The notes under the pieces were generated by a model. The model was given only the letters and a program-made list of their open reading frames with translations, was not told where the DNA came from and did not search any database. DNA of 63,575 nt, counting the filler, from Reclinomonas americana ATCC 50394 (taxonomy: Eukaryota): the NCBI GenBank assembly GCA_048213135.1. It is 22 parts of 22 records of this genome, joined end to end, with 100 filler letters (N's around TTAATTAATTAA, not from the genome) between each part and the next. Parts side by side here need not be neighbours in the genome. Positions count along the whole stretch, not along the records: positions 11,177 to 18,205 come from AFZH01024134.1; 21 more parts are not named here. One strand, 5' to 3'. Below, in pieces: positions 6,401 to 45,865 of this stretch; positions within the stretch are counted from its first letter, which is position 1; each line of letters starts with the position of its first letter. The position numbers were made by a program, and so were the translations under genes.

Positions 6401-8231
6401 GGTTAAGGGTTCTACAGTCCGCCATCATCAGCGCCTGCTTGTTGACCTTGCATGCAAGGAGTGTGGCATCCCTTTATCGAAAGCAGGCTGCCTTTCGGCG
6501 GCAGTTGTGAGCTCATTCGGGAAGAGTTTGTCGGTGTCGTCCAACATGCACGCACCAAGATGCCCAAGTCAGTTGAGGGAATGCTGCAGAGCATGAGCTA
6601 CTTTGTCGAGGTGAGCAGCTTTCATCTCGCCGACCGTATCGGAGACAAGCCCTCACGCATGTGCCATTATGCAGAAGAGTGAACTGCGTGGCGCTGCTCT
6701 AGCTGACGCCATTGAGAGACCTCTGGCTGTGGTGGATGAACGTGGCCATTCTGAGGTATGCCCGCCTTGCGCTCTGTGTACGTGAATGGTGTTTCTCAAA
6801 TTCTGTGCTCTGGAATTCGGTTGTCAGGAGTCATCACAACTGCCAGGGATGAAGCGCAGCAAGCAGAATCCCTTTCTGCCATATGTCACACAGGCCGTGG
6901 ATGCCTTCCACGACTGCCCAAGCCTGCTGGCTGGTCTGCTCCGAGACGGCTGTCTGTCCGAGTCGGAGATCACACGTGCTGTCGAGTGGTGCAGTGAACA
7001 AGGTTTGACTGTGAGGATTCTTTGCTGCACCTTGTGCGCATGTGCTCACCAACGACTGAACAGCTCTGAGGGAGATGGAGATGGTGAAGAAAGAGGAGAA
7101 GCGGGAGGAAGAGCAGGAGGATGAGGACGATGACAAGGTACGCCCGTCGCTCAATTCTGTTAGATGCGAGATAGGTGCGTGTCCTAACTCTGTCGTGATT
7201 GTCCTTCACAGCGCCGCAGAAGTGGTCGTGCGAAGCTGAGCATCAACGAGCAACTGATGCTGACGAGACTGTTTGTTGCGTGTTGCTGTTATCTCTATGC
7301 ATGTCGTCGACAATGCTGTCACTCTCATCAGCTCACCTCGTCTCGGAGCAGGGTTGCAACAGGAAGAGGATGCTGGTGAAGGCATTCGGCCTCATGGCAC
7401 CTGTGGTGATGGGATCCACAGTCCTCCATCATCAGCGTGCTCTCTTCCAGCTTGCCTGTGACGATTGCGGAATACCGTCGACGGGACCAGGTTGCCCTTC
7501 AGCCGCAGTTATGTCTGCATTCGGCAAGAGTCTTGCCCGCAGTGCCAAGACTGCACGCAGTACGACGCCCAAGTCAGTGAAGGGTGTTCTCGAGAGTGTG
7601 AGCAACTTCATCGAGGTGAGTGTCAGTTTGCTTTCTTTGTGTCACATCCGTTTGTGGTGTGCCTGGCAATTGATCTGCCTTCCATCTGCGCTTGTCATCA
7701 TCAGAAAAGCCGACTTCGAGGAGCTGCGCTGGTGGATGCTGTCGAGAGACCACTGATTGTGATTGATGAGTGTGGCTACTCTGAGGTATGCCGGCGATGT
7801 GTGGTTCTGTGGAGCTTCGGTGATTGGTGACTAAGCTTTCTCGTTTCTCGAGTGACAGAAATCAGCAGAGTTGGCGAAGAATAATCATCCAAACGTGATT
7901 CTTCCACTCGTCACGCAGGCCATGCATGTGCTCCGCACCTACCCTGGCCTGCTGGCCACTCTACTTCGAAACGGTTGCCTTTCGACAGCGGAGATTGAGC
8001 GTGCTGGTGAGTGCTCCGAATGCAACAATCTGAGAGCAACTGGTGTTGCTGCATGTCGTGCCAGCATCGTAACTGACGTGCATGATGCAGTGCTGGGTGA
8101 CGAGAAGCCGGTGAAGATGGAGGTGGCGAAGAAAGAAGAGGAGGAAGCGGAGGAGGAGGAGGAGGAGGAGGAGGAGGAGGAGGAGGAGGAGGAGGAGGAG
8201 GAGGAGGAGGAGGAGGAGGAGGAGGAGGAGG
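3458..8231 (+). CDS. Spliced eukaryotic gene (partial at both ends): 4 tandem copies of the same domain, SV40-like NLS, poly-Glu tail; paralog/allele 2
   Basis: Four ~1.0-1.2-kb genomic units with conserved exon/intron structure; spliced PPKKKK|R at ~3807-3824; GAG run 8151-8231. Confidence 0.72.
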
Positions 8232-8331: not shown

Positions 8332-9296
8332 AGAATCGACGGATTGACCTGCGATGCACCAGTGCCGGTCGTCTTCCATCCGCGCAAGAACGCGGCGGTA
8401 TGGAAATCAGTCTGTTTCAACCCGCGGGTTGACTGACGGCTGATGAGGGTGACCACCACCGGCGCGTTTCCCACCAGCGTGCTCTCTGCAACATGACGGT
8501 GATCCATGTCAGTAATCGTGCACAACTGCCGGTAAATCTTCGCAGACAAACTCACCGCCCGACACCATCACGTAGCCACTGGAATTGTCACGCGGCACCA
8601 GCCGCGATCCCACCAGCATGGAACGCAGCTCCAACGCCTGCACGCGACTATCGCCGCGCACCGTCATCAACACCTGCGAGGTGGCCGCGGCCGCCTCACC
8701 GACAGCCACCTCAAAGTTGTCGCTGCGTGCCGTGCCACTCGGATCGAGTCGAATGGACCGCATACCCGTCAGCGCCAGCGCAATCGAGGGGATTTCATCA
8801 AACCCAAACGCATGGGCATTCACCACTTCCTGCTCACACAGCCGCGTGGTCGCGACAAATGAGTTCAGGGACCATGCACAGGTCTGCTTGCATCAACAAA
8901 CCGTGGTGAAATTCTTGTCGGTGGCCAGGCTCAGCCACTCATTGGCAGCTTTCTGACGCGGCAACTCGTTGTCGTGTGTGTACGTCGCGGCAGGGTCCGC
9001 GTACATGGCGATAAAATCTGCGACGTAGGTCGTGAGTTTCATGCAAGTGTGCATGAGAACTAAATCGATCTCACGAAACTGGTAATGAGCGAGTCGAACT
9101 GCGCAGTGCCGAGTGCCGAGCACTGCACCGTCAGCATAAACTTGGTGACCGACGGCCTCGCGCAGCGAATGTCAGTGTCGCCCTCAATCGTATTGGAGAG
9201 AGCGGAGATGCCAAAGAGCACAGTGGGAATCGCCGGGAACGATTGCACAAAGCGGTGTGTGATCTCCACGGAGCGAGTGCCAGTGCCAGTGCTCAT
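8332..9296 (-). CDS. Internal exons of secreted H-type-lectin-like protein, copy A (5' exons fall in the gap at 11077-11176)
   Basis: Reverse complement is highly similar to 41364-42330; exon MSTGTGTRSVEITHRFVQSFPAIPTVLFGISAL. Confidence 0.6.
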
Positions 9297-12200
9297 CTGT
9301 CGCACAACCAGGAAGCAAACGTCAGCATGCAAGACGTGGACACCATGTGATTGAGAATGTCATGATATCCAACCCGCTCCTCCGTCACTCCTCTCTGTTT
9401 CACACATAAACTCTCTGACTCACTCACTTGCTGTTGTTTCTCTCATCAACAGCACCTCAACATTTCCCTTCTGTCCCCCACCTCCTCTCCTCGCACGCAC
9501 AGTTGACCTTCAATCCTCTATGCCACTCATCTACTGAATCCCCAAGCACACACTCCCAAAAGTCTCAGCCATTCCCCTCCTCAATCCTTCCACTCCTGTC
9601 ACCCACAACCCGTCCCCTCATGCGGTGCATTCACATCACACATGGGAACAACTAAAGATTACCTTTCTTCTCCCCAGTCGGTCTCTCACTCTCGTAAGAC
9701 AACAACAATCTCCACTGATGCCCTTCTCCTATCTCACTCTCTCCTTCTTACCGTCGTCACACAATACCACAAATATTGACAAACTGTCCTTCCTCTCTTC
9801 TCCCTCCAACCTTTCTCTCGCATACAGAATCAACCTCCATTGACATCGCTCGCTTTGTAACCCTCTCAATGGCATCCAATCCACACACTACCACAACCTA
9901 TTCTATCCCTTTCCCCCTCTGCCTTGCCACACACACAGCCTCCACGGCACACTTCTTACTGTTACTATCTCTCCGATGCATTCTCATCCACACAGCCACA
10001 AGGTATCATTTCCCTGCCCACGTCTGATGATCCTGCCTTGTCACACACAAGCAGCCTCCGCAAACATTCTCCTCTTTGTTTCTCTCTCCAATGCATTCCC
10101 ATGTGTACACCCTCAACCGCAAACAATCCGTTCCATCCCTCCTCTGTCGATTCTCTCTGTCACACACACATATTTACACAGACATTCTTCTCCTCGCCCT
10201 TGCATTCATCTACAAGGTATCTACCACAACAAATCCTTTCCCTCCCACCTCTGCATCTCTTCGCATGCCACACGCAATCTCCTCGAGTACACTTCTCTTT
10301 GATTCTCTCTTCCTTGCATCCATCCACACTATCTACCATGACCAATCCTTTCCATCCCCTCTCTGACGATCTTCTCTTGCCACCCAATCTCCACCGACAC
10401 ACTTCTCTCTGTTTCTCTCTCCTTCACATCCACATCTCCACACACATTGCCACAACCACTCCGTCTCCTTTTCTCCTCCTTCTCCTTTCCATTCTTGGCA
10501 CTCTCATTCTCTCAATCGTTTGCATCCACATCTACACAATACCACAACCTATTCATCTCCTGACGGTCCTCTCTTGCGCCACCAACACTCCACGGACACA
10601 CTTCTCTTTGTTACTCTCCGCAACGCGTTCCCATCCACACACTTCCAAAGCTAATCTATTCCCTTTCTCCCTCCTGCCTTTCCCTCTCTTGTAATACACA
10701 CAAATTCAACAGACATTATTCAGTCTGCTTCTCTCTCCCTTGCTTTCCCATCAACACACTTCCACCCTGTCTCCTCCATGCAAAATGCCTTCAAAACTCC
10801 CCTTCTCCTTGACTCACTTCCCTCCTCCTCTTCCCAACTAACATCTCTTCTCCTCGTCTCACATCCTTCCACATAGCCCATTATCTCCCTCCCTTCTCCT
10901 GGTCGAAACTCCCTCCTCAAACTTCCCTCTTACCTCCTTCCCTCTTTACCCCCTTCCCTCTCAACCCCCCTTCCCTCTTTACCCTCTTCACTCTTTCTCC
11001 CCTTCCCTCTTCACCTCCTTCCCTCTTTAGCCCCCTTCCCTCTTTACCCCCCTTCCCTCTTTACCCCCCTTCCCTCNNNNNNNNNNNNNNNNNNNNNNNN
11101 NNNNNNNNNNNNNNNNNNNNTTAATTAATTAANNNNNNNNNNNNNNNNNNNNNNNNNNNNNNNNNNNNNNNNNNNNTCTCCACTCGTACTCACAGACGGT
11201 AAGTTGGCCACCGGTGACGGCAGTGAACGATCCGACGCCACCAAATTGAATGCTGTAATACATAGTGTGAGTGAATGGAATACATTCACACTGACTCAAG
11301 CTCGCTTCTCGCAGAGAGTAAGGGAAAGGATAATGAGCTTCTTACGCAAAGAAACCACTGCCGACGACCAGGAACGCTCAGTTGATGCAAGAATGTCTCC
11401 AGTCTACAAAGTCCATCCACTATCCTCTGCAATGCGGGCTCCATTCCAACGTAATCTCGTGCACCACGCTCAACATGCATGCTTTCATCCGCAGTGTCTC
11501 TCTGGCCACATGGCGCATGTTACAACTCACTCATTCTTTTCGCCATTGCTTCCCCATTCCTCCTCGCTTCACCTCCTTTTCATCCCTGCCAGCTGATCTC
11601 TCTCACTCTCTCGCCCTCGCTCACTAGCTCACATATACACACAGTCACACTGGACAAGCTCTCGCACAAGGAAGCAACCGCACATTCTCATTGGTCCCAG
11701 TTTCAATTCACTCCATCTCACCTCTTCTTTCCGTTCTTCCCCTCTCCTTTCTCTTACATTCCTTTATCTCCTCTCATCCTCTCATCCCCTCTCTCATACA
11801 TTCTCCTCTATTCCTCTCTTCCCTTCTCCTCATTCTCTTCTCCTTCCTTCCCTTCCTCTTCTCTTCCCTTCTCCTCTCTTCCCTTCTCCTCCTTCTCTTA
11901 TTCTCTCTTTCCCCCTTCTCCTCTCCTCTCTTCCCTTCTCCTCTCTTCCCTTCTCCTCCTTCTCTTCTTCTCACTCTTCCTCCCTTCTCCTCTCCTCCCG
12001 TCTCTTCCCGTCTCATCCCCTCCCGTCTCCTTCTTGTCCTCTCCTCTCTTCCCCTTCACCCATTTCTCCTCCCTTCCCGTCTCCTCCTTCTCTTCTCCTC
12101 CCGTCTCCATACCCTTATCCTCCCCGGGCCCTCCCGTCTCCTCCTTCTCCACTTATCCCTTCCTTTCCCCCCTCCCTTCCCTTTTCCCATGTACACACCA

Positions 12201-12702
12201 GACGTAGCTGAAGAAGATGGGCATGGAGAGCAAGCAGGTGCGCCGAGTGGTGGACAGGTGCTGAATGGAGATGCTGCGAGCGGAATATGAGATCTTCGCT
12301 ATCCACTGCGCAGGTGAACTCGTTAGAATACATCGTCATCTCTTGCATCGAATACACATGTCTCACCAGCCAACTAACTCGACGAGTGTACTCTCGACGA
12401 ATATCTCAGGTAATTGAGGGCATCTCTTCGCCATGAAGAATACGACACGAAGCCCTTGACCGGGGTGCAGCTGGACCAAAGATCATCTGCATCAGAAATC
12501 GGTGCAGCCAGCGGCGACGACAAACAACCTGTACTGTGATTCGTCCGATCGCTGAGGTCATTTTGCACATTGTTAACGCCGAGTACACAGTTCGGCTTGG
12601 CGCATATTGCATGCACGACAGGACAAGGGTCCACGCGTGCCTGCACAATCCGTCAAGTCGGCGGACATTTAAGGGTTGCTACACGAGCTCCCGTTTGTCT
12701 TG

Positions 12703-15700
12703 TCACAAAATCACGCCGGTGAAATCAGGAAGGAAGGAGCCGATTATGCGCTCAAGCATTATTCCACGATTGTGAGTATCGCTCCCACTCGAAACAACAT
12801 CTGCCACCTCAGTTTCCGAACCCGCATGCCCTTCCAGTCGGCGCATCTGCTCGCCACCACCCGACACTGACCACACACGCAAAGTCTCGTCAAGACTGCC
12901 ACACATAATGTGCAGTCCATCGGGTGTCACAGCCACCGCGTACGCCTTCTCCATGTAGCCTTCCAGGCGACGCACCTCCGCGCCACTAGCCAGCGACCAC
13001 ACCCGCACAGTCTTGTCCCAACTGCCGCTCACAATATACCGACCATCCGGTGTCACTGTCGCTGCAGTCACCGCACTCGTGTGGCCCTCCAGTCGGCGCA
13101 CCTCCTCACCACTTGCCACCGACCACACCCGTACAGTCTTGTCATCACTGCCACTCACAATGTGTTGGCCATCGGGTGTCGCTGCCACTGCAGATACTGC
13201 ATCTGTGTGACCTTCCAGTCGTCGCTCCTCATTGCCACTTACCAACGACCACACTCGTACAGTGTTGTCCGCACTGCCACTCAGAATGTGATGACTATCG
13301 AATGTCACTGTCACTGAAAACACATAACTCGTGTGGCCTTCCAGTCGACACACCTCCTCGCCACTCGCCATCGACCACACCCGTACAGTACGGTCAAAAC
13401 TGCCACTCACAATGAACTTGCCATCAGGTGTCACCGCCACAGCATACACAGGATCCGCGTGGCCTTCCAGTCGGCGCACCTCCTCGCCACTTGCCACCGA
13501 CCACACCCGTACAGTCTTGTCTATACTGCCACTAACAATCTGCTGGCCATCGGGTGTTACCGTCACTGCCCGCACCGCTTCGGTGTGTCCTTCCAGTCGG
13601 CGCACCTCCTCGCCACTTGCCATTGACCACACTCGTACAGTCTTGTCTCGACTGCCACTCACAGCGTGCTGACAATCGGGAGTCACAACCACTGCCCGTA
13701 CACAATCAGTGTGGCCCTCCCGTCGTCGCACGTCCTCGCCACTTGCCATCGACCACACCCGTACAGTATTGTCTGCACTACCACTCACAATGTGCTGGAG
13801 GTCGGGTGTCACTGCCACTGCAAGCACCAAACTCGTATGGCCTTCCAGTCGGTGCACCTCTTCGCCAGTTGCCATGGACCACACCCGCACAGTCATGTCC
13901 TCACTGCCACTCACAATGTGCTGGCCGTCGGGTGTCACTGCCACGGCAAACACCGAGCCAGTGTGGCCTTCTAGTCGGCGCACCTCCTCGCCAGTCGCCG
14001 TAGACCACACGCGTACAGTCTTATCATGACTGCCACTCACAATGTGCTGGCCATCAGGTGTTACTGCCACGGCAAATACCGAGCCAGTGTGCCCTTCCAA
14101 TTGGCGCACCTCCTCTTCACTTGTCAGTGACCACATTCTTACAGTTTTGTCCTCACTTCCGCTCAAAATGTGCTGGCCATCAGGTGTCACTGCCACTGAA
14201 CGCACCCAATCTGTGTGGCCTTCCAGTCGGCGCACCTCCTCACCACTTGCCAGCGACCACACCCGTACAGTGTTGTCTCGACTGCCACTCACGATGTTTT
14301 GGCTATCGAGCGTTACTGCCATTGCACACATCCCACTCATGTGGCCTTCCAGTCGGCGCACCTCCTCGCCACTTGCCAACGACCACATACGTACAGTTTT
14401 GTCCTTGCTGCCACTCACAATGTGCTGTCCATCGGGTGTTACTGACACTTCATGCACCTCATCGACGTGACCTTCCAGTTGGCGCACCTCCTTGCCACTT
14501 GACACTGACCACACACGTACAGATTTGTCCGCACTGCCGCTCACAATGTGCCGGCCGTCGGGTGTGACAGCAACGGAGAACACCACTCCAGTGTGTCCAA
14601 ACATTGGCTTCCTCGGCCACTTCATACCCGTCTTGTCCGCCCCCCTGAAATCTGCCTCCCTCCCGAAGGCCAGACACGCATTCACCCCTCGCATATCCGC
14701 TCCCCTCCACACCGTCCGGTGCATCACTGCATCTCTCAAATCCGCACCTGGGATTCGCACACCCGACATATCGCGCCCACTGAACGACACCTCCGCGAGA
14801 CACAATGCACTCGCCGCACTCGACGACACTGAAGCGACTCTCTCCTCCGTGCGTGAAAGAGCAATCGCCTTCCACAGTACGCCATGAAGAGACGAATCTG
14901 GCCGCACTTGCTCGGCGACGAACGACAGGATGGAATTAAGTCCCTGCATCCAGCGAAGAAGGGGTGAGCGCATGTCGTGAGAGTGAATGATGGAAAGGAT
15001 GCACTCACTTCATCCGATGTGAGGAGTGTCCGCTGGCCACTGAAGCTGGCGCACAGTCTGTCGAGCCGATCCTGCACCGAGGTAGGTTGACAATCATGCA
15101 GGATGAATGATCAGAGAAGCACGACGATGCTCACCTCCAACTCCACCTCCTCATCGGCCAACAACCGCACATCAGCCAGCCACGACTGAGCGGCAAAGTA
15201 CTCCAGCACCGATTTGTGCATGAACTCCACACGCTGCTGCGATGCTCCAAGTCGACTCCACTTCAACAATGCCTGTGTAGTATCTCGAATGAGAATGCAG
15301 GGAATGCACCGCCATGAGAGAGGGAATATTATGACGACGCAACAGCACGAGCGAGGGAGTTCTGCAGCGGATCATCACGATCAAACCACTTGTTCCACAC
15401 ATGCTGCTCTGCGACAGCTTGTTGAGTGTGCTGTGATGAATGAAGGAGAGTGAGCTAAGAAACGCAGATGGAACAGGAATTGTAGAACCAGTCTCATGTT
15501 GAACGGCAAACCTCGAGCTTTCCCTGCCGCACAGACACCAACGAGTGTTGCATCATCTCTCCAGCAAGCTCCGAGCAAAAGTCCCACACTCGCAGACAGA
15601 AATCCTCTTCCGATTCTTCGTCGCCATACAACTGTGCAAGAATGATTTGTGTGAGAAGGCATGTATTCCACACTGTTATCCACAACCGCCAACGGCACAC

Positions 15701-17638
15701 CTGACGAATGTGCACTCGGTGATGCTCAAACTCCCAGCGCAGTTTGTATTTGGCAAACGCCTCATACAACCGTGCACGAGTCACGCGATTTGCGGAGAGT
15801 GCAGTACCACCGCCAGCGCCGTCATGGCGGTGCTGCATCCGTTCCAGATCTTCCATTACCAGAACAATCATATTCAACATCAGGGGCTGTTATGGAAATG
15901 GGGGAAAATGAGGAAAGTGAGTACCACCGCCGCGCGCCACTGCATGTACATGTGAAATTCTTTTGTTGTGCTGTCACTTTTCTTGTCGCTCTCGTACAAC
16001 ACTCTTCGCGTCGACATCATTGCGCACTCTGTCTCTTTCCATCACCAACGACTCACCGACGAAGCCAGGCCATCCAATCCCGGCGTGCGTTCGATCTGTT
16101 GCTTGTACTGCTTCCATGAGCGAGGGTGATCCGCTCGTGACTCCACAAACCTGCTCACACAAAAGTGAATGTGTAACCCAAGTGAACAAGCAGGGCAGAG
16201 CAGCGATGGCACTCAACTTGTGCAGAAAGAGATCAATGTCATCCTTGGAGAACAGACGCAGCATACATCGTACAAGAGTACGCTCCGACTGACGAAGCCG
16301 CTCGGCGCGCGACAGCTTCGGGTCCACAGGCACAAAGTGCTCTTCAGCCCAGAAGTTGCCGAGGCGGCTGATGAACTCGCGTCGCACCGACACCACCAGC
16401 AGCACATTGGGCCAACTCTACGCAATTGAGTGGGTAGAGTCACTCCACTGCATGCGTGCATATCACGCCACTTGGCACGACAACGTAACATCCAGGTCAT
16501 GGTTGACAAACAAGTTACCGGGTGTCTCACTGCACTCGTCATATCCGTCGAGCACCAGCACAACGGTGCCGATGTGTCGAAGCTGTGTGGTGTGACAAAT
16601 GTGAGGCAAGTAGGAACATCGCGTGCATAGAAACCATCAACGTGAAGAGATACACGCTGCAGAAATAGTGAGACAGCGAGTGGTGGTGGAGAGGGAGAGA
16701 CGCGCCATAAGAGAGAAAAAACGGAGAGAGAGAGACTGAGAAAGAGTAACGGAGAGAGAGAGAAAGTGGGAGAAAGACTGGAAGAGAGTGACGGAGAGAG
16801 AGAGGGAAGAAAGACTGAGAGAGAATGAGAGAGAATGAGAGAGAGAGAGAGACTGGAAGAGAGTGACGGAGAGAGAGAGGGAAGAAAGAGTGAGAGAGAG
16901 ACTGAGACAGAGACTGAGACAGAGACTGAGACAGAGACTGAGAGAGAGAGAGAGAGATGCTTGCAAGAACGATAGAGGAGCGCATTGGGGAAGGAAGACT
17001 GAGTGAGAGAAAGTGTATTCTCAACAAAGGAGGAGAGAAAGGACACAACGTCCAGCAACCTTGACCTTTAGGAGAGATACATCGTGAAAGAGAACGAAAC
17101 CGAGCAACCTAAAGCGAGACAAAGTGAAGATGGAGAGAGCGGGGGGAGCATGCACAATCACAAGAGAAAAACAATGTGTAAAAGTGACAGTATCTGGCAA
17201 AGAGCAAGGTAGATGACTCCACATGGAGAGATAAGGAGCAAAAGAGACTGGATGTCGAGTGAGCAAAGTAGGAAGTGAAATGCGTGAGTAGACTGAGAGA
17301 GAAAGATGTATGTGCAGGGACACATGCAAGCAAACTTCTCGAGACTCAACATCATGCTCCCAGCTCCACACAAACCACCACGAATCTGAATGCCAATCAA
17401 ACACAAACATACTCACCTCATCCTCTGTCACCTGCATCTTCGTGTCATCCACGGCCTCGTTGGCCTCGTGCAGGAGGTAAGGCAGCAGCGCTCCTGGCTT
17501 GCGCAGCACTTCCTCACGAGGAATGGCGGGAAGACGAGCCGACAACACCAGCGTGTCGTTGCGCGCATGCAGGCGAGCGGTGAGCTGGCGCAGCAGCACG
17601 GACTTGCCACCGCCGGACCATCCAGCGACCACCAGAAC
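12703..17638 (-). CDS. STAND/NACHT NTPase + pentapeptide repeats + 14 WD40 repeats (HET-E-like NLR architecture), copy A; N-terminus not resolved
   Basis: Spliced exons give Walker A GWSGGGKS (~17600-17623), Walker B VVLVLDGYDE (~16536-16565), SPLML, winged-helix EFMHKSVLEYFAA, FSGRDMSGVRIPGADLRDA pentapeptide segment, then 42-aa GH...SGS.D.TVRVW repeats in the long last exon (12703-14943). Confidence 0.9.
12830..14600 (-). repeat. 126-bp coding tandem repeat (14 WD40 units plus a degenerate 15th)
   Basis: ccttccagtcggcgcacctcctcgccacttgcca..gaccacacccgtacagt recurs every 126 nt. Confidence 0.95.
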
Positions 17639-18422
17639 CTGATCGCAAACGCATTCCGTAAGGCAGTGATTCAGCGAAGCACACAATGGCCAGCGCGCAC
17701 AAGAGAATGATGCAGTGTCGCACGAGGATGCAAACATTAAACATGCCCACAACTTGGAGAGGAAGGTCACAGACAGCATAGGTGTTGACTGGAAGAGAGC
17801 CCACTTGTTAACTGAAGCGCAGTACATGAGAAGGACGCAGCGAGATCAGCGACAGACATGTGCAATCGAAGACAGCGAAACAAGGCACAAGCAGGCGGTG
17901 AGGAAACGACCAACGGCAAAGAGAGACAGAGATGTGGGTGAAGGGAGAAGGGAAAGGCGGAGCAAATATCAGAGACAGAGAGAAGGAGATAGAGAGAGAG
18001 AGAGACAAGGGAGACAAGGGAGAGACAAGGGAGAGCGAAGGGAGAGAAAAGGGAGAGAGAGAAAAAGTGAGACAGAAGGGGAGAGAGAAAAGGGATAGAG
18101 AAGGGAGAGAAAGGGAGAGAGAACAGGGAGAGAGAACAGGGAGAGAGAAGGGAGAGAAAAGGGAGAGAGAAGGGAGAGAAAGGAGAGAGAAAGGAGAGAG
18201 GAGAGNNNNNNNNNNNNNNNNNNNNNNNNNNNNNNNNNNNNNNNNNNNNTTAATTAATTAANNNNNNNNNNNNNNNNNNNNNNNNNNNNNNNNNNNNNNN
18301 NNNNNGCGTATCTCCCTCTCGCTCGCTCGCTTTTCCGTGTGCATTTAGTTATGGTTGAGAGAGAGATAGATAGTGTGGTCGCAGAGCAGTGGCAGCAGTA
18401 GCAGCATTAGTTAGTGTTGTAT

Positions 18423-19224: not shown

Positions 19225-22200
19225 ATGAACCCTGTGCGTCGTCGTCGCACACTCCCTCGCCCACTCACTCGCCCACTCACCGCCACTCTCACAGGACGAC
19301 ATTGAGTACAAGTTAGAAGTGCAGCGATCCGTGCGCGCGCACAAGAACATGGTGAAGAAGCAGCGCGAGGACGAGGAACGACGCAAGCGCGAGGCCGAGG
19401 ACGCCGCCGCACAAGAGCTGCAGACGTTTGTGCAGGCATTCGTGGCGACGCCGACGCCAGCCCGAAAAAGCGCGTCGGCACCACTGGCGTCGCCGTTTGT
19501 GCGCGGAGGTGTGCTGGACCCCGGCAAGAACGTGATCACTGCAAGCAGTGAGTCGACCGCTGCGACTGTGGCCACTGCGCACTCGTCTCCTCCGCGAGTG
19601 CCGTCTGCATTGCCGCTGCCGGCCGCGGGAGATGCGGTGCTGGCGATGGATGAGGCGGAGCAGCGATGGTTGCGCGAGGAGAAGGAGCGTGAGAAGAAGG
19701 AGCGTGCAAAGCGCAGGTTTCAGGCGGAGTTGGGCGTGTCGTCGTCGACGGCGGCGACGAGCAGTGCGGCGAGTGGGAGGCAGCGCGAGCTCGATGCGTA
19801 CCTGTTGGAGATGAAAAAGTTGCGGTGTTTTTTTTGCAGCAAAGAAGCATGCTTGTCGTTGTCTCTCTCTCATAGGGTGCACGCAGAGCGCGAGAGGAGC
19901 GAGAGATGGCGGCCAAGAGGAGGGAGGAGACAGGCGCGTCGCCGGCTATTGTGTCGTCGTCTTGTTGCGTTGCGGTGCCTTGCATGCACCGTTTTCTTTT
20001 CTGCGAGTTGTGACGCGATGCATGCAGCATCCGGGAGCCACCACGATTCCACCGAGCCCGACTCCACGAATCTGTACGTCGGCAACCTGAGTCCGTCGGT
20101 GACCGAGGAGGACTTGCTGAGGGAGTTTGGAAAGTACGTGTGCAATCGCGTTGAGGTCATCTCTTGCAAATGTATGGCTCATTCGGCTTGCAGGTACGGC
20201 GCAGTCGGCAGCGTCAAGATCATGTGGCCGCGTACAGCCGAGGAGCGCGATCGGAAGCGAACCAACTCGGGATTCGTGGCGTTCATGAAGCGTGAAGAAG
20301 CCGGGCGTGCCTTGTCGGCGCTGTCGGGTTTGTTGTTCCTGCATGTGATGGCACGTGACGACGAGTGTTACTGATTAATGGCCGCAGGTGTCATGCTGCA
20401 AGGGTGTGAACTGCGTGTGGGATGGGGCAAGAAGGTCCCGCTGCCCCCACGGCCAATCACTTGTGCGTCTGCTCGTTTCTGTGTGATGATCGGGGTGGAG
20501 TCTCACGCATTTCCTTTTTTTGTCGTGCAGCAATTGGGTCGTCGCAGGGTGATGCACCGGTGAGCGTATTCTGTGACATCCACTCTTCATATATCTCTCT
20601 GCTGACAATCTCTGCCACAGGCTGCTGCCAGTGTGGGTGTGGTTCCGAATGGTGCGCTCACGCGGCGAGTTTGCTTCTCAGTGCCCGTGATGCTCATTTT
20701 CTTGTGTGCAGCATACGGCGTGCGCTCCACGGGTCAGATTCANNNNNNNNNNNNNNNNNNNNNNNNNNNNNNNNNNNNNNNNNNNNTTAATTAATTAANN
20801 NNNNNNNNNNNNNNNNNNNNNNNNNNNNNNNNNNNNNNNNNNAAAAGGAGCACGGCAATCTCGATTTCTCGTTCCTCTTCTTCAACGGGACTCCCGACAA
20901 TGTGTACTATCGCTGGCGGATATTCTCGCTGGCTCAGGTGTGCCGTCAGGGCGTTGTTTATTTTGTGTGGAATGCTCTTCATTCACCTATTGCAACAGGG
21001 TGACACGCTCCGCGTGTGGCGGACAACGCCCTTTCAAATGTTTGCTGGCAACACCCTGTGGGTTCCGCCACCTTGCAAGGATGCCCCAGTTGCGCACAAT
21101 TCTCTCTATCTCTTTCTCGTTCCGCGTCCCTCGGATTACTCACAGAGCACGCTGTTCAGCCTCCCGACGCTCGAGCCTCAGCCGTTGACGCGGAGTCGGG
21201 ATCGACGTTGCTCGGCGTGCCGACGCGGAAACGCGTTCGTATCCTCAGCGACAGGCGACGGAAAGAGTTTTCGGTAAGCCTCTCTCATTATTGGTGCATT
21301 CCGGCGTGCACACTCACCGCCAATTGTTGATGTATGCAGGATTTGTTGGACAAGTTGACGGTGGAGAAAGATCGCGTGCGCGACGCCATGATGTTTGCGT
21401 TGGATTTTGCCGACGCTTCGGAAGAGGTTTGTGTGCGCTTCTACCAAGTTCATACTCACCTCGATGCTAAATTCCGTTGACGCTACTGCATAGGTCATTG
21501 ACATGATCGCGGATTCGATGGCCAAGGAGGATGCGGAGCCGGCACGACGCTTTGCGTTGCTGTTCTTGGTCTCCGACATTCTGTTCAACACCGGGTCGTC
21601 GAAAGTCAATGCCGGCCAGTATCGTTCCGGGTTTGTTGTCTGTCCTCTTCTCCTCTTCGTCCGCTGCCGCAGCGTCCTGACGAATCTGCGTGCGCTGTAG
21701 TTTCCAAGCTGTTCTGGTCGACATGTTTTCCGCGTTGAATGACATGTACCGTCGCGCTGGTGGTCGTTTCACTGCCGAGCTGATCAAGGAGAACGTGGTG
21801 CGCGTGCTGCGCGTGTGGGAGCGCTGGTCGCTGTACCCGCCACTCTTCATCCAGCGACTCGAAGCCACCCTGATTCGCGACAAGAACGCCGAAGCCAAGG
21901 CGGAAGAGCGCTCTGCGGCATCGTCGACAACCACACCAATGTCAACGTCGGCGCATTCAACTAGCGCGAGTGCCGTCAAGGACACTCCTCGGAGACGTGC
22001 AGAAGTGAGTGTCTTTCCGTTGTGTGATGTCGCTCAGTAGATTACTGACGCTGATGCCAGGCTCTCGCCGAGGCGCCGTACGATCCCGCGAATCCACCAA
22101 TCTTGCCGGTGGAGCACATTTCGTTTGCACTTACCGAAGCCATTGGCTCTGCCGATCCTCCTCCACCACCACCGCCCCCACCGCCACCATCTTCTTCGTC

Positions 22201-30602: not shown

Positions 30603-30995
30603 GTCGCGATAGGGGCCATCGGCGCCGAAGCCGGTGATCGAGCAGGCGACGATGCCCGGCCGGATCAGCTGCAGACGCTCCTCGCCGAAGCCGAGTCTGG
30701 CCATCACGCCGGGCCGGAAATTGTCGATCACGGCATCGGCCGTGGCGAGCAGCTGCTCCAGGCCGCGCTTGCCGTCCTCGGTCTTCAGGTCGAGCACGAC
30801 CGAGCGCTTGTTGCGGTTGAAGGAGGCGTAATACCAGCTCAGCCCGTCGCGGCCGGATCCTTGCGTGCGGAGCGGATCGCCCTCGGGCGGCTCGACCTTG
30901 ATCACGTCGGCGCCCAGATCCGCCAGCAGCATCGTGCAGAACGGGCCGGAGATGACGCGCGTGAGATCGACGATTCTTAGGCCGGTCAACGGCAT
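30603..30995 (-). CDS. CaiB/BaiF family III CoA-transferase (3'-truncated), bacterial
   Basis: PLTGLRIVDLTRVISGPFCTMLLADLGADVIKVEPP.GD..R...NRNKRS...DNFRPG. Confidence 0.95.
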
Positions 30996-31013
30996 TATGC
31001 AGCCTCTTGCGGA

Positions 31014-32288
31014 TCAGAAGGAATTCGGCAGCCAGGTGACGATGCCGGGGAAAACGGAGATCAGCACCAGCACCAGCAAGGACCAGCCGAGGAAGGGCAG
31101 GAGCTGGACGGCGATGGGCCAGAGCGGGACGCGGCCGACCGCGCCGGTGACGAAGAGCAGCAGGCCGATCGGCGGATGCAGCATGCCGATCATCAGGTTC
31201 AGCACGACGATCATAGCGAACTGGATCGGGTCGAGGCCGAGCTGCGCCTGGATCGGCAGCAGGGTCGGCACGAACATGACCAGCGCCGGCAGCGGCTCCA
31301 GGATCATCCCGACCACGAACAGCATGAGGTTGACGATCAGCAGGATCACCAGGGGATCGCTCGAGAGCGACAGGATGCCCTGCGAGATGCGCGTGGCGAT
31401 GTGCGATTCGTTGAGCAGCCAGGAGAAGGGGCCGGCCGCCGCCAGCAGGAACAGGATGACCGCCGAGGTCTTGCCCGCGGCGAGGAAGACCTCGCCCAGG
31501 CTGCGGATCTTCAGGTCGCGATAGATCGCGAGCCCGACGATCAGCGCGTAGACGCAGATCACTCCGGCGGCTTCGGTTTCCGTGATGAAGCCCGAGCGGA
31601 TGCCGAGGATGATCAGCACCGGCACCAGCAGGGCCCAGATCGAACCGCGCGTGGCGACGGCGCGCTCCCTCCAGGTCGCGGCCTCCTTGGCGGCATAGCC
31701 CTCCCGCCGCGCGACCCAGGCGCAGATCGCCATATAGCCGAAGAAGAGCAGCAGCCCGGGCACGACGCCGGCCAGGAACAGCTTGCCGATCGAGAGATTG
31801 GCCATGATCGCGTAGATGATCAGCGGGATCGACGGCGGCAGGATCGGCCCGAGCATGGCGCCGGCGGCGATGACGGCAGCGGCGTAGCCGGGCTTGTAGC
31901 CCTCCTTCTTCATCGCCGGGATCAGGATGCCGCCGGTCGCCGTGGCGTCCGCGACGGCCGAGCCCGAGATGCCGGCCATGATCAGGTTGGTCATCAGCGC
32001 GACCTGCGAGAGGCTGCCGCGCAGGTGGCCGACCATGGCGGTCGACCATTCGATCAGGCGGCGCGTGACGCCGCCGCGGTTCATGATCTCGCCGGCCAGG
32101 ACGAAGAGCGGCACGGTGATCAGCGCGGCGCTGTCGACCCCGGAGACCACCGTGAGCGGGGCCATGACCAGGTCGATGCCGCCATGCATGAGCATGCCGA
32201 TCATCGCGGCCAGGATCATGGCGAAGCCGACGTCGAGCCCGGCGACAAGCAGGCCGAAGAAGACGAGCGTGCTAATGATGATCAGCAT
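31014..32288 (-). CDS. dctM: TRAP transporter large permease
   Basis: 424-aa polytopic membrane protein with PLFVLAGEIMNRGG, GISGSAVADA, PPSIPLIIY, HPPIGLLLF. Confidence 0.95.
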   Translation of the reverse strand: MLIIISTLVFFGLLVAGLDVGFAMILAAMIGMLMHGGIDLVMAPLTVVSGVDSAALITVPLFVLAGEIMNRGGVTRRLIEWSTAMVGHLRGSLSQVALMTNLIMAGISGSAVADATATGGILIPAMKKEGYKPGYAAAVIAAGAMLGPILPPSIPLIIYAIMANLSIGKLFLAGVVPGLLLFFGYMAICAWVARREGYAAKEAATWRERAVATRGSIWALLVPVLIILGIRSGFITETEAAGVICVYALIVGLAIYRDLKIRSLGEVFLAAGKTSAVILFLLAAAGPFSWLLNESHIATRISQGILSLSSDPLVILLIVNLMLFVVGMILEPLPALVMFVPTLLPIQAQLGLDPIQFAMIVVLNLMIGMLHPPIGLLLFVTGAVGRVPLWPIAVQLLPFLGWSLLVLVLISVFPGIVTWLPNSF

Positions 32289-32847
32289 GGTCGCTCACCG
32301 TGTCGACGCCGAGCCGGCCGCCCAGCAGCGTGTCCGCCATGCGCAGCAGGAGAAAGATCACCAGCAGGACGAGCCCGGCGAGCAGCGCCCCGTACATGAC
32401 GTCGTAGTAGAAGGGCGTGCCCATGATCGCCTGGAACGAGCCCACCTCCAGCAGCTGCCAACCATTGACCAGCAAGGCGAGCGCGACGAGCAGCATCACC
32501 CCGTCCAGGAAGACGCCGGCGACACGCCGGGCCCTCTCCGGCAGGAAATGCTGGATCACCTCGATCCTGATGTTCATGCGGTCGCGGACGCCAAGCGCGA
32601 AGCCGAGGAAGGCCATCCAGACCATGCCGATGCGGGCGATCTGGTCATGCGCGTCGAACTGCGTCTTCAGCACGTAGCGGTCCGCCACCTGGCCGACGGT
32701 GAAGGTCAGCACCACGACGAGCGCCAGCACGACCAGAACCTTGACCAGCGTCTCTAGGATACGGACGGGCACGACCAGCATGCGTACCCCCTCCCCGCGG
32801 ACGGGCGCAGCGATCCGCCCTCCTGCCCCGGCGTCCGAGACAGCCAT
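32272..32847 (-). CDS. dctQ: TRAP transporter small permease
   Basis: 4-TM protein between dctP and dctM; start overlaps dctP stop (TGATG). Confidence 0.88.
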   Translation of the reverse strand: MAVSDAGAGGRIAAPVRGEGVRMLVVPVRILETLVKVLVVLALVVVLTFTVGQVADRYVLKTQFDAHDQIARIGMVWMAFLGFALGVRDRMNIRIEVIQHFLPERARRVAGVFLDGVMLLVALALLVNGWQLLEVGSFQAIMGTPFYYDVMYGALLAGLVLLVIFLLLRMADTLLGGRLGVDTVSDHADHH

Positions 32848-33278
32848 CAGGCGCCCTGCAGCGTGCGCAGACGGGCGACCATGCCCTTGGGCCACATCTT
32901 GCCGTCGAGCTCGTCCTCGACGCCGGCGACCGCCTTGCGGAAAGCGTCGCGATCAGGGACGACATAGGTACAGCCGGCCTTCTTCAGGATGTCGATCGCC
33001 TCGGTATCGAGCTCCTTGGTCAGTTGGGTGGTGACCTCGCCGGCGGCCTTCGAGGCCTTGCGGAAGATTTGGCGGTCGGTCTCGTTCAGCCCCTTCCAGA
33101 GACGCTCGGAAGCGAAGAAGCCGACGAGCTCGTTGACGTGGTCGGTCGCCGACCAGAACTTGGCTGCCTCGTGGAAGCGCGGCGGGATCGAGAGATCGAA
33201 GCCGTTGTCCTGACCGTCGACCGCGCCGCGCGAGAGCGCGCTGTAGATCTCCAGCATGCCCATCGGCGTGGACTGGGC
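32847..33278 (-). CDS. dctP: TRAP substrate-binding protein (5'-truncated)
   Basis: TPMGMLEIYSALSRGAVDGQDN...FHEAAKF...T.H. Confidence 0.9.
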   Translation of the reverse strand, partial: AQSTPMGMLEIYSALSRGAVDGQDNGFDLSIPPRFHEAAKFWSATDHVNELVGFFASERLWKGLNETDRQIFRKASKAAGEVTTQLTKELDTEAIDILKKAGCTYVVPDRDAFRKAVAGVEDELDGKMWPKGMVARLRTLQGA

Positions 33279-33378: not shown

Positions 33379-35551
33379 CGCCGAGCGGCTTCATCAGTCG
33401 GAGCGTACGCTTGTACGATGTATGCTGCGTCTGTTCTCCAAGGATGACATTGATCTCTTTTTGCACAAGTTGAGTGCCATCTCTGCTCTGCCGTGCTTGT
33501 TCACGTGAGTGCCACATTCATTTTTGTGTGAGCAGGTTTGTGGAGTCACGAGCGGATCACCCTCGCTCATGGGAGCAGTACAAGCAGCAGATCGAGCGCA
33601 CGCCGGGATTGGATGGACTGGCTTCGTCGGTGAGTCGTTGGTGATGGAAAGAGACAGAGTGCGCAATGATGTCGACGCGAAGAGTGTTGTACGAGAGCGA
33701 CAAGAAAAGTGACAGCACAACAAAAGAATTTCACATGTACATGCAGTGGCGGCGGTGGTACTCACTTTCCTCCTTTCCCCCATTTCCATAACAGCCCCTG
33801 ATGTTGAATATGATTGTTCTGGTAATGGAAGATCTGGAACGGTTGCAGCACCGCCATGACGGCGCTGGCGGTGGTACTGCACTCTCCACGAATCGTGTAA
33901 CTCGTGCACGGTTGTATGAGGCGTTTGCCAAACACAAACTGCGCTGGGAGTTTGAGCATCACCGAGTGCACATTCGTAAGGTGTGCCGTTGGCGGTTGTG
34001 GACCACAGTGTGGATCCGGAGGAATACATGCCTTCTCACACAAATCATTCTTGCACAGTTGTATGGCGACGAAGAATCAGAAGAGGATTTCTGTCTGCGA
34101 GTGTGGGACTTTTGCTCGGAGCTTGCTGGAGAGATGATGCAACACTCTTTGGTGTCTGTGCGGCAGGGAAAGCTCGAGGTTTGCCGTTCAACATGTGACT
34201 GGTTCTACAATTCTTGTTCCGTCTGCGTTTCGTAACTCACTATCCTTCATCCATCACAGCGCACTCAACAAGCTGTCGCAGAGCAGCATGTGTGGAACAA
34301 GTGGTTTGATCGTGATGATCCGCTGCAGAACTCCCTTGTTCGCGCTGTTGCGTCGTCCCTCTCTCATGGCGATGCATTCCCTGCGTTCTCATTCGAGATG
34401 CTACACAGGCATTGTTGAAGTGGAGTCGACTCGGAGCATCGCAACAGCGTGTGGAGTTCATGCACAAATCGGTGCTGGAGTACTTTGCCGCTCAGTCGTG
34501 GCTGGCTGATGTGCGGTTGTTGGCCGATGAGGAGGTGGAGTTGGAGGTGAGCATTGTCATGCTTCTCTGATCATTCATCCTGCATGATTGTCAACCTACC
34601 TCGGTGCAGGATCGGCTCGACAGACTGTGCTCCAGCTTCACTGGCCAGCGGACACTGCTCACATCGGATGAAGTGAGTGCTTCCTTTCCATCATTCACTC
34701 TCGCGACATGCGCTCACCCCTTCTTCGCTGGTTGCAGGGTCTTAATTCCATCCTGTCGTTCGTCGCCGAGCAAGTGCAGGCTGATCCCTCTCTCCATGAC
34801 GTACTGTGGAAGGCGATTGCTCTTTCACGCACGGAGGAAAGAGTCGCTTCCGCGTCGTCGAGTGCGGCAAGTGCACTGTGTCTCGCGGAGGTGTCGTTCA
34901 GTGGGCGCGATATGTCGGGTGTGCGAATACCGGGGGCGGATTTAAGAGATGCAGTGATGCACAGGACGGTGTGGAGGGGAGCGGATATGCGAGGGGTGAA
35001 TGTGTGCATGGCATTTGCGAGAGAGGCGGATTTCACGGGGGCGTATATGACGGGTATGAAGTGGCCGAGAAAACCAATTGAAGGCCATACGAGTGTGGTG
35101 AGCGCAGTGGCAGTGACACCCGATGGCCAGCACATTGTGAGTGGCAGTGCTGACGGTACTGTACATGTGTGGTCAGTGGCAACTGGCGAGGAAGTGCGCC
35201 GACTGGAAGGGCACACGAAAGCGGTGAGGGCTGTGGCAGTGACACCAGATGGCCAGCACATTGTGAGTGGCAGTCGGGACAAGACTGTACGTGTNNNNNN
35301 NNNNNNNNNNNNNNNNNNNNNNNNNNNNNNNNNNNNNNTTAATTAATTAANNNNNNNNNNNNNNNNNNNNNNNNNNNNNNNNNNNNNNNNNNNNCCGATT
35401 GGAAGACCACACGGATGGGATGTGTACAGAGGTTGATGGACAGCGTGTTCTTCCAAGATGGAAGGATTCACCACTTGCACACCACGATGGAGAGCTACTC
35501 CTGCGCATTGTCGGCTCCTTCCTGCCTGATTTCACCGGCGTGATTTTGTAA
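33379..35551 (+). CDS. NACHT-pentapeptide-WD40 gene, copy B (5'-truncated; most WD repeats fall in the gap 35295-35394)
   Basis: Collinear with reverse complement of 12703-16310; ends ...GSFLPDFTGVIL* at 35551. Confidence 0.88.
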
Positions 35552-37267
35552 CAAGACAAACGGGAGCTCGTGTAGCAACCCTTTAATGTCTGCCGACTTA
35601 CGGATTATGTAGGCACGCGTGGACCCCTAGCTTGTCGTGCTTGCAATATGCGCCAAGCCGAACTATGTGCTCGGCGTTAACAATGTGCAAAATGACCTCA
35701 GCGATCTGACGAATCACAATACAGGTTGTTTGTCGTCGTCGCTGGCTGCATCTATTTCTGATGCAGATGATCTTTGGTCCAGCTGCACCTTGGTCAAGGG
35801 TTTCGTGTCGTATTCTTCATGGCGAAGAGATGCCCTCAATTACTTGACATATTCGTCGAGAGTACACTCGTCGAGTTAGTTGGCTGGTGAGACATGTGTA
35901 TTCGATGCAAGAGATGTCGCTGTATACTAACGAGTTCACCTGCGCAGCGGATAGCGAAGATCACATATTCCGCCCACAGCATCTCCATACAGCACCTGTC
36001 CACCACTCGGCGCAGCTGGTTTCTCTCCATGCCCATCTTCTTCAGCGACGTCCGGTGTGTACATGGGAAAAGGGAAGGGATAAGTGGAGAAGGAGGAGAC
36101 GGGAGGGGAGGAAAAGGGAATGGAGACGGGAGGAGAAGAGAAGCGAGGGGAAGGGAAGGGAGGAGAGGAGAAGGGAAATGGGTGAAGGGGAAGAGAGGAG
36201 AGGACATGGAGGAGACGGGAGGAGAAGAGAGAAGAAGAGAAGGAGGAGAAGGGAAGAGAGCGGAATGGAAGAGAGGAAAGGAGAAGGGAAATGGGTGATG
36301 GGAAGAGAGAAGAGGAAAGAGAGGAGAGGAGACGAGAAGAGGCTGGAGGAGAAGAGAGAAGAAGAGAAGGAGGAGAAGGGAAGAGAGCGGAATGGAAGAG
36401 AGGAGAGGAGAAGGGAAGTGGACGAAGGAAAGGGAGGAGAGGAGAAAGATGGGAGGAGAAAGGAAGAGAAGAAGAAGGGAAGAGAGGAGAAGGGAAGGGA
36501 GGAGAGGAGCAGGAGAAGGCAAGAGAGGAAATGAAGAAAATGTGTGAGAGGGGGATGAGAGAAAAGGAGAGAGGAAGAGAGGAAAGGAGAGGGGAAGAAG
36601 AGAGAGAGAAAAGAGGAGGTGAGAGGTGAGATGGAGTGAATAGAAACTGGGACCGATGAGAATGTGCGGTTGTTTCCGTGTGCGATTGCTTGTCCAGTGT
36701 GACTGTGTGTGTATATGTGAGTTAGTGAGCGAGGACGAGAGAGTGAGACCAGCTCAGCCGGCAGGGATGAAAAGGAGGTGAAGGGAGGAGGAAAAGGGAA
36801 GCAACGGTGAACAGAATGAGTGAGCTGTAAGATGCGTTACGTGGCCAGAGAGACACTTAGAATGAAAGCGTGTATGCTGAGCGAGATGCACGAGATTACG
36901 TTGGAATGGAGCCCCGTATTGCAGAGGATAGTGGATGGACTTTGAAGACTTGAGACATTTGCATTCACTGAATGAGCATTTCTGGTCGTCTTTGGCGGGT
37001 TCTTTGCTTAAAAAAGCTCGTTTTCCTTTCTCTTACTCTCTGCGAGAAGCGAGTTTGAGTCATTCACTCACACTGTTTTACAGCATTCGATTTGGTGGCG
37101 TCGGATCGTTTACTGCCGTCGCCGGTGGCCAACTTACCGTCTGTGAGTACGAGTGGAGAGTGCGAAGAGTGCATCATGTGCTTGTGTTTTCGGCAGTGCC
37201 GTTGCCAACATTTTCATTCCCAACCGTCGCGTCGTCATACACGGTGACAATCGGCAACACAACCACT

Positions 37268-42586: not shown

Positions 42587-42768
42587 ACGAAGACATCGAG
42601 CGAGCGCGGCGCATCGCGCAGCACGATCGGGTGGCGCTCTCGGACGTCGACGGGAACACCGGAGGTCGAGATGTCGCCCTTGGCGCAGGCCCCGAGCAGG
42701 AGCGCAGCGCCGAGCGCGGCCGGCAGCGCGGCCCGGAGCGGCTTTCTGGTCACGATCATGATCGCCAT
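42587..42768 (-). CDS. cpaD: Tad pilus lipoprotein CpaD (3'-truncated)
   Basis: Lipobox LLGAC, D.RERHPIVL motif, immediately downstream of cpaC. Confidence 0.85.
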
Positions 42769-42787
42769 CCTCGTCGCGGCCCCGTGT

Positions 42788-45072: not shown

Positions 45073-45130
45073 GGCACACGATCCTTGGTCGGCATGCGCC
45101 GACCCTCAGCCGGATCGTGGCCTTGGAATC

Positions 45131-45146
45131 GTCAACTTATGGTTAA
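45131..45146 (-). promoter_or_regulatory. Probable CtrA site upstream of cpaB
   Basis: Minus strand TTAA-CCATAAG-TTGAC (TTAA-N7-TTAAC with one mismatch); adjacent GANTC site at 45126. Confidence 0.6.
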
Positions 45147-45197
45147 CCGGAGGTATCTTTTTGTGCGGATCGACCGTTCCGGAGCGGGACCGCCCCA

Positions 45198-45719: not shown

Positions 45720-45801
45720 CCGATGAGCAGGGGCGACATTACCGCTTCGACCTCACCAAAGACTTACCGGCACAAGGCGAGGTGGAATTCACCCCCCAAA
45801 C

Positions 45802-45836: not shown

Positions 45837-45865
45837 GCCGTTCGATGATGATCGCCCTGGCGAGT

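What the first reader, a model, noticed from the sequence alone, without database searches (positions are those of the whole stretch)
12703..17638. HET-E-like NLR with homogenised, position-specific hypervariable WD40 array in a protist
Seen: NACHT motifs, a pentapeptide-repeat segment, then 14 near-identical 126-bp WD40 units in one intronless exon, whereas the NACHT half is split by many introns. Scaffold residues are nearly constant. Variation concentrates in GH-x-[xx]-V-[xx]-V (GVVFS, DEVHE, SGMCA, DWVRS, GSVFA, SLVLA, DCVRA, EAVRA, DPVYA, SYVFS, DAVSA, SAVTA) and SGS-[x]-D (A,K,R,E,H,E,A,R,I,F,A,D,W,L). Copy B differs at these sites (SVVSA, KAVRA) and in its C-terminal tail. Established: Podospora HET-D/HET-E NLRs diversify ligand specificity by concerted evolution and shuffling of WD40 repeats with selected surface residues. 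Inference: a repeat-shuffling non-self recognition system in this lineage. The effector domain lies beyond the contig end.
Basis: partly seen in the sequence, partly recalled or inferred. Interest (0 to 1): 0.7.

Follow-up and report, generated by a model that had tools for sequence, protein, structure and literature searches.

The report
Protist NLR family with shuffled WD40s
This is a real immune-receptor-type gene from a large family in a protist; its binding repeats are reshuffled and selected at the same spots as in fungal self/non-self receptors, and its front end seems to carry a hidden membrane-anchor tag instead of a killing domain.

Summary
Largely confirmed. The gene is intact: 10 exons, 1,153 aa visible, NACHT-pentapeptide-14xWD40, repeats in one exon. 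'Near-identical' is overstated: mean 75% nucleotide identity. It belongs to a family with at least 123 matches in this non-opisthokont genome. Repeat positions 5, 7, 23 show omega about 6-8 (13 of 15 chosen paralogs agree); these are the top-face hotspots, and match the Podospora HET-E sites by my alignment. Paralogs 92-95% identical on both sides of the array share no repeat order, and two NACHT clades swap tails, so shuffling is well supported. The principle is known (PMC1805685, PMC13449251). They carry a conserved R-x-x-L-x-G-G|G-C-x-x-S leader: 33 genome hits versus 0 control, and all 31 inspected sit on NACHT/STAND-type genes. I read it as a cut site exposing a myristoyl/palmitoyl signal; untested. 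This scan earlier noted the HEPN-headed sister clade and stand-alone arrays on other DNA, called this motif chance twice (contradicted here), and noted a similar motif in another genome. Ligand and function are unshown.

The parts
17417..17638 (-). Gene A exon 1 of the visible part: NACHT Walker A exon
   Evidence: weak nSTAND/AAA hits; the 5' exons lie off the contig, which ends in a CT-rich intron at 18205
16472..16582 (-). Exon 2: Walker B (LDGYDE)
   Evidence: donor site differs in 3 of 8 paralogs checked
16218..16417 (-). Exon 3 (NACHT core)
16057..16150 (-). Exon 4
15701..15886 (-). Exon 5 (helical domain after NACHT core)
15512..15631 (-). Exon 6
15344..15430 (-). Exon 7
15135..15272 (-). 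Exon 8 (winged-helix-type FxHxS motif; name of motif recalled)
15009..15071 (-). Exon 9
12703..14943 (-). Exon 10 (2,241 nt): helical linker, pentapeptide segment, 14 WD40 repeats, tail, stop
14620..14787 (-). Pentapeptide-repeat segment, shared by both NACHT clades (79-93% DNA identity across clades in the part compared)
   Evidence: (copy B); low confidence in the model
12835..14598 (-). 14 WD40 repeats of 42 aa, two propellers; positions 5, 7, 23 under diversifying selection
12703..12834 (-). C-terminal tail ending in the family's conserved GSFLPDF-type motif
33379..35294 (+). Copy B, 5' piece: 94.9% identical to A upstream of the array, 79% and 76% in repeats 1 and 2
35396..35551 (+). Copy B tail on the next contig, beyond an assembly gap; tail type shared with L011, L012, L075
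8332..12700 (-). 3' flank of A, homologous to B's flank 35554-42331 (81-93%); includes a weak H-type lectin ORF at 9063-9359

Best explanation
Gene A is one member of a large family of NLR-type (STAND) sensors. Shown by sequence: a NACHT ATPase, a pentapeptide spacer and a double WD40 propeller whose top-face residues are diversified by selection, while recombination between 126-bp repeats of many loci rewrites the arrays and swaps N-terminal halves between two NACHT clades. Inferred: each gene binds a different protein ligand on the propeller face, most likely from parasites, endosymbionts or viruses; binding releases autoinhibition and the NACHT oligomerises. Gene A's clade carries no recognisable effector; it probably has a short leader cut after Gly-Gly to expose Gly-Cys-x-x-Ser for myristoylation and palmitoylation, placing the sensor on a membrane, with output supplied by partners such as the HEPN-headed sister clade. 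The confidence given is for the diversifying sensor family; the leader mechanism is about 0.4 and the partnering about 0.2.
For: Intact gene model. At least 123 exact pattern hits, 0 control. 693 repeat units from 75 genes give 527 different residue triples at positions 5, 7, 23. Codon tests: 2dL 31.3 (tree) and 45.7 (star) for A, omega 6-8 at 5, 7, 23; 13 of 15 paralogs significant, recombination null maximum 7.6 in 22 runs. Model pLDDT 82, sites in the d-a loop, start of strand a and b-c turn, which I assign to R1-2, R1, D-1 of PMC3419727 (passages). A/L011/L012: upstream 92-94%, 3' flank 92-95%, same-position repeats 78-82%, no better than shuffled order, p 0.38-0.49; pS 0.29-0.34 against 0.12-0.21 upstream. 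Two 3'-flank types are each shared by clade I and clade II heads. 11 of A's 14 repeats have their nearest neighbour in clade II, about the pool share of 79%. Leader: 9 of 9 independent clade I leaders readable carry G-G-G-C-x-x-S-R amid flanks of 10-20% identity with saturated third positions; 33 hits versus 0 control; 31 of 31 inspected are on NACHT/STAND-type genes of five lineages.
Against: No ligand, expression, protein or phenotype data. Gene A's repeats are less alike (75%) than Podospora's 80-100%. Whole repeats are almost never identical between genes: 1 of 1,891 array pairs shares 126 nt or more, 43 share 60 or more, so exchange is old or sub-repeat in scale. Linkage among silent sites is near zero at all distances, which fits recombination or recurrent mutation equally. 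The codon test is my own code with fixed relative branch lengths, mildly anti-conservative (4 of 22 null runs above 5.99), and does not model multi-nucleotide changes; two low-identity arrays were not significant. Head/tail chimeras could be short-read mis-joins. About 10 of 64 gap-free genes are truncated. The leader is not on A's contig; 3 of 9 leaders depart from LRGG (LCGG, LHGG, VLGG); no ubiquitin fold was detected upstream; 0 of 151 outside relatives carry it.
Confidence: 0.7

Rival explanations
1. A selfish or neutrally expanding repeat-gene family: duplication and ectopic recombination make the arrays, and surface positions drift under relaxed constraint; no recognition role.
For: Many copies, tandem clusters, about 10 of 64 truncated; pooled uncorrected pN at the variable sites is only 1.1-1.2 times pS; recombination inflates the test somewhat.
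Against: omega 3-9 at the same three or four codons in 14 genes, far above the null; repeat numbers cluster at 13-15 (38 of 46) and 7 (4 of 46), i.e. whole propellers; scaffold pN is about 0.08-0.10 against pS 0.3.
Confidence: 0.1
2. Conspecific allorecognition as in Podospora het-e/het-d: the propellers read polymorphic self proteins during cell contact or fusion and trigger death.
For: Same variable positions and exchange pattern as the NWD family (PMC1805685 passages); B may be A's allele, since 94.9% lies in the 94-97% range of likely haplotype pairs.
Against: Over 100 copies against 10 in Podospora; no HET domain; nothing known here of fusion or aggregation; no polymorphic partner identified.
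Confidence: 0.15
3. The leader is an organelle-targeting presequence (mitochondrial type) removed on import, not a lipidation switch.
For: The 20 residues before the motif are basic and nearly acid-free: 64 R/K/H and 3 D/E in 180; several leaders are 10-12 residues from a Met; an Arg three residues before a cut is a recalled presequence pattern.
Against: Invariant Gly-Cys-x-x-Ser after the site is the recalled N-myristoylation/palmitoylation pattern and has no role in import; in A's subgroup an upstream exon appears to precede the basic stretch.
Confidence: 0.15
4. The Gly-Gly leader is a tripwire: a pathogen's deubiquitinase-like protease cuts it and thereby activates the NLR.
For: The motif is confined to NACHT/STAND genes; tolerated changes at the Arg fit LxGG-type proteases (recalled); protease-tripwire NLRs such as NLRP1 are known (recalled).
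Against: A tripwire should diversify, but this site is invariant; the WD40 face already looks like the sensor; no protease identified.
Confidence: 0.1

Closest known systems
Podospora anserina NWD/HNWD family (HET-E, HET-D): PMC1805685, passages read; PMC13449251, passages and section 12 read
   Same: NACHT plus conserved WD40 repeats; selection at pairs of codons around a conserved Val and Asp (their 7, 9, 25, 27 correspond to my 5, 7, 23, 25 by a two-residue offset that I infer); repeats pooled across different NACHT clades; truncated members.
   Different: No HET domain; a pentapeptide spacer; at least 123 matches (haplotypes may be counted twice) against 10 genes; lower repeat identity in gene A; position 25 not significant in A and position 4 often significant in paralogs; non-opisthokont host; no function shown.
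NACHT-pentapeptide-WD40 proteins of Mortierellaceae and bacteria
   Same: Best profile hits are from Modicella reniformis and Linnemannia elongata and unnamed metagenome proteins; 16 of 151 fetched relatives also have WD40 units over 55% alike. NACHT-WD40 NLRs shared by Mucoromycota and Mycoavidus are mentioned in 10.1101/2022.03.16.484565 (passages; it does not mention pentapeptide repeats).
   Different: Different N-termini; none of 151 has the LRGG-GC leader; intron-rich NACHT in clade I.
[quoted passage not shown]
   Same: Non-opisthokont repeat receptors with shuffling and diversifying selection.
   Different: There each repeat is its own exon; here all repeats sit in one exon and are WD40.
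Nostoc-type highly repetitive WD40 double propeller, PDB 2YMU (organism recalled)
   Same: Top sequence and fold match, about 40% identity.
   Different: Structural analogue only.
HEPN-NACHT NLRs (clade II of this genome; animal DZIP3-type named in earlier scan notes)
   Same: Clade II shares the pentapeptide-WD40 module and has a head with sub-threshold HEPN_Swt1 hits in 15 of 22 members and Atlas leads of 0.78-0.80.
   Different: Gene A's clade lacks this head.

Membership tests
Podospora HNWD/NWD NLRs | NACHT NTPase | tested here: met
   Spliced A scores 182 bits against the clade II profile, whose members pass PF05729; the spliced A protein itself was not scanned against Pfam
Podospora HNWD/NWD NLRs | WD40 repeats 80-100% identical | tested here: not met
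   Gene A mean 75% nt; 16 of 62 arrays reach 80-85%. The paper's Psim 0.7 score was not computed
Podospora HNWD/NWD NLRs | Diversifying selection at top-face codons | tested here: met
   Positions 5, 7, 23 in A; 25 only in 3 of 15 paralogs
Podospora HNWD/NWD NLRs | Concerted evolution of repeats between loci and NACHT clades | tested here: met
   assembly mis-joins not excluded
Podospora HNWD/NWD NLRs | N-terminal HET effector domain (HNWD) | tested here: not met
   Judged from close paralogs, as A's 5' end is missing
Podospora HNWD/NWD NLRs | Allorecognition, cell death, allele polymorphism among isolates | not testable with these tools
   One assembly only
NACHT-pentapeptide-WD40 STAND proteins (Mortierellaceae/bacterial type) | NACHT, helical region, pentapeptide, WD40 order with homologous NACHT | tested here: met
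   486 representatives at E 1e-30 or better; A's N-half hits 150 of 152 fetched proteins, best 7e-35
HEPN-NLRs | N-terminal HEPN with R-x4-H | tested here: not met
   Absent in clade I; only sub-threshold in clade II
Ubiquitin-fusion precursors cut after LRGG | LRGG at the junction | tested here: inconclusive
   6 of 9 independent clade I leaders have LRGG; 9 of 9 have GG
Ubiquitin-fusion precursors cut after LRGG | Ubiquitin fold directly upstream | tested here: not met
   No Pfam hit for 4 upstream exons at E 10 beyond one DUF; Atlas weak; several leaders are only 10-12 residues
N-myristoylated/palmitoylated proteins | G-C-x-x-S at a real N-terminus, acylated | not testable with these tools
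   Pattern (recalled consensus) present in 9 of 9; no Met or AG precedes the Gly; cleavage and acylation need the bench

The most novel reading that the evidence does not exclude
A protist runs a combinatorial NLR repertoire of over 100 genes drawing on one recombining WD40 pool, split into effector-less, membrane-anchored sensors and HEPN-RNase executors; the anchor is switched on by a protease that cuts a ubiquitin-tail-like leader and unmasks a myristoyl/palmitoyl signal, a processing route found only on NLR-type genes in this genome.
Probability: 0.25. Interest if true: 0.82.

Novelty: new variant of a known kind. Interest (0 to 1): 0.55.

Why it matters
Repeat-shuffling NLRs were worked out in fungi and are reported in animals, plants, bacteria and archaea (PMC13449251 section 12); the text I read names no protist case. 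This genome gives a large, testable example outside opisthokonts with the same selected codons, bearing on whether unicellular eukaryotes have diversifying immune receptors. The conserved Gly-Gly|Gly-Cys leader, if processed as inferred, would be a way of localising or activating NLRs that my searches did not find described.

Tried and rejected
Sequencing runs: none was listed, so no reads were laid. Word-based homologue search with a clade II N-half gave one distant hit. Pattern for LRGG-G-x-C gave 10 hits against 7 control, uninformative. Linkage decay among silent sites: no slope. Which small leader contig is A's missing 5' end: six candidates end in the same CT-rich intron, none assignable. 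Ubiquitin-like call for the upstream exon: unsupported. A and B as the only two alleles: rejected as the whole story, since 8 copies are 91-100% alike; B being A's allele stays open. Splicing or a start codon directly before the leader Gly: no AG or ATG there. Chance origin of the leader motif: rejected. Literature: searches returned 0 papers, one unrelated review (listing only), listings with nothing on this motif among those shown (25 of 69 and 30 of 229 listed); the library lacks most subscription journals and bioRxiv supplements were not seen. No NACHT tree was built, so a bacterial origin is not claimed.
Full report
Setting. The window is a string of small contigs joined by N spacers. Gene A fills G000:C8667 (window 11177-18205, minus strand). 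The assembly is 108 Mb and includes bacterial-type contigs. Its EF-1alpha lacks the 12-residue insertion present in the three animal sequences aligned; I recall this insertion as an opisthokont mark, so 'protist' is reasonable. Earlier scan notes say jakobid-like; I did not test that.

Observation. The array has period 126 and 13.8 copies and 14 Pfam WD40 stretches. Ten exons joined at nine GT-AG introns give 1,153 residues without a stop, with Walker A and B, and align along a clade II NACHT profile at 182 bits. Repeats average 75% nucleotide and 68% amino-acid identity, so 'near-identical' is too strong. Copy B is 94.9% identical upstream and 76-79% in its two visible repeats; it is cut by a gap, and its long 3' flank matches A's.

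Family. A tight pentapeptide pattern matches 123 places against 0 for the reversed control; this is a lower bound on matches, but likely haplotype pairs at 94-97% mean loci may be counted twice. From 80 fetched stretches plus A, I parsed 82 gene starts: 19 clade I (A-like, intron-rich NACHT), 62 clade II (NACHT to WD40 in one exon), 1 unassigned. The clades are 55-66% alike in the helical region but 79-93% in the pentapeptide part. I extracted 693 gap-free 42-residue units from 75 genes; units with N, indels or broken anchors were dropped. Of 46 genes that my filter scored as reaching the tail, 38 have 13-15 blades by length and 4 have 7. The filter flagged 18 of 64 as broken; 8 of these end in tail variants, leaving about 10.

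Selection. Counting from the Gly of GH, positions 4, 5, 7, 23 and 25 are the most variable in the pool. My GY94 site models on 13 repeats of A (repeat 14 left out for an insertion) give 2dL 31.3 for M1a/M2a and 30.1 for M8a/M8, omega 6-7, at 5, 7, 23; a star tree gives the same. Of 15 paralogs that I chose, mostly with well-conserved arrays, 13 were significant and two low-identity arrays were not; 22 neutral simulations with block recombination reached at most 7.6, four exceeding the nominal cut-off. An alignment-based model (pLDDT 82; best match 2YMU) puts 5 in the d-a loop, 7 at the start of strand a and 23 in the b-c turn, which I equate with the top-face hotspots R1-2, R1 and D-1 (PMC3419727 passages). 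Podospora's selected codons 7, 9, 25, 27 flank conserved codons 8 and 26 (PMC1805685 passages); matching these to my Val6 and Asp24 gives the same sites.

Shuffling. A, L011 and L012 are 92-94% identical before and 92-95% after the array, yet same-position repeats are 78-82% identical and no better than permuted order (p 0.38-0.49); silent divergence is 0.29-0.34 in repeats and 0.12-0.21 upstream. All six pairs among A, L011, L012, L013 behave so. By contrast L043/L089 align at 90% after a one-repeat shift and the divergent arrays at L107/L110 keep their order, so the test can see inheritance. Among 45 genes with readable flanks, one flank type joins three clade I and two clade II heads, another two clade I and one clade II; L075 (clade II) keeps positional likeness to L012 (clade I), p 0.002. 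Identical tracts between genes are mostly about 60-66 nt and span the constant stretch between variable sites; only 1 of 1,891 pairs shares a whole repeat. Mis-assembly cannot be excluded without long reads.

N-terminus. A's 5' end is off the contig. Its nearest paralogs have, upstream of the NACHT, two small exons of the pre-NACHT region, a Pro/Ala linker of about 50 residues, and a basic stretch ending R-L-A-L-R-G-G followed by G-C-G-A-S-R. Further up is a degenerate exon resembling clade II's second exon; a ubiquitin fold for it is unsupported. No effector domain was seen, though more distant exons cannot be ruled out without RNA. In nine clade I sublineages found through their NACHT/WD40, all nine readable leaders keep R and G-G-G-C-x-x-S-R while flanks fall to 10-20% identity and third positions are near saturation; three alter LRGG; a tenth locus was masked. 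A degenerate pattern finds 33 sites against 0 control; of 31 inspected, 23 are clade I, 2 clade II and 6 belong to three other P-loop lineages, two with Pfam NACHT and pentapeptide hits and one with only a weak P-loop hit. Two more clade II genes carry a G-x-C-x-S form. The pattern was built from family members, so it says nothing of other Gly-Gly leaders. This contradicts two earlier notes that called the motif chance; a third note reports a like motif in another protist's NACHT protein, unchecked here. Clade II instead has a 230-residue head with weak HEPN signals, noted many times by the scan.

Mechanism. Shown: architecture, selection at the binding face, loss of repeat order, head/tail reassortment, conserved leader. 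Inferred from STAND biology (recalled): ligand binding, oligomerisation, defence role. Inferred and untested: cleavage after Gly-Gly, acylation, membrane targeting, pairing with HEPN-bearing partners. Rivals are neutral expansion, allorecognition, an organelle presequence and a protease tripwire.

Comparison. It works like the Podospora NWD family but fails membership on the HET domain and repeat identity. Its chassis belongs with NACHT-pentapeptide-WD40 proteins of Mortierellaceae and unnamed relatives, several of which also have conserved repeats. Conserved-repeat NLRs are reported across domains of life (PMC13449251 section 12; figures and supplements not seen), and brown algae have shuffled receptors (PMC3341825 abstract). 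Verdict: a new variant of a known kind, well supported at sequence level; the leader is the part worth bench work. Interest 0.55.

Noticed in passing
window 9063-9359 (-) and 41247-41597 (+): Weak H-type lectin hits (E about 5e-4, below cut-off) in the shared 3' flank of A and B.
   Followed up: partly
window 42587-50896, 30603-33278, 60542-63575: High-GC contigs that look bacterial: secretin/pilus gene, phosphoglucomutase, IS110 transposase and a 192-bp triple repeat at 45866-46417; probably contamination or a symbiont.
   Followed up: no
window 53876-56723: Two contigs made of 298-bp and 309-bp tandem repeats at about 88% identity; nature unknown.
   Followed up: no
window 19229-20371 (+): RRM exon of an unrelated gene on the next contig.
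   Followed up: no
L029-L106 clade II heads: The HEPN-like heads look mosaic, with alternative blocks around the R-x4-H motif recurring in different combinations; may reflect shuffling of the effector too.
   Followed up: partly
L049: A clade II gene with about 21 repeats, i.e. three propellers.
   Followed up: no
L013 about 7120-7150: A short stretch resembling a tRNA T-arm by eye upstream of the leader exon; not scanned.
   Followed up: no
P0021, P0077, P0108 and others: Outside relatives with conserved WD40 units that appear to vary at the same positions.
   Followed up: partly
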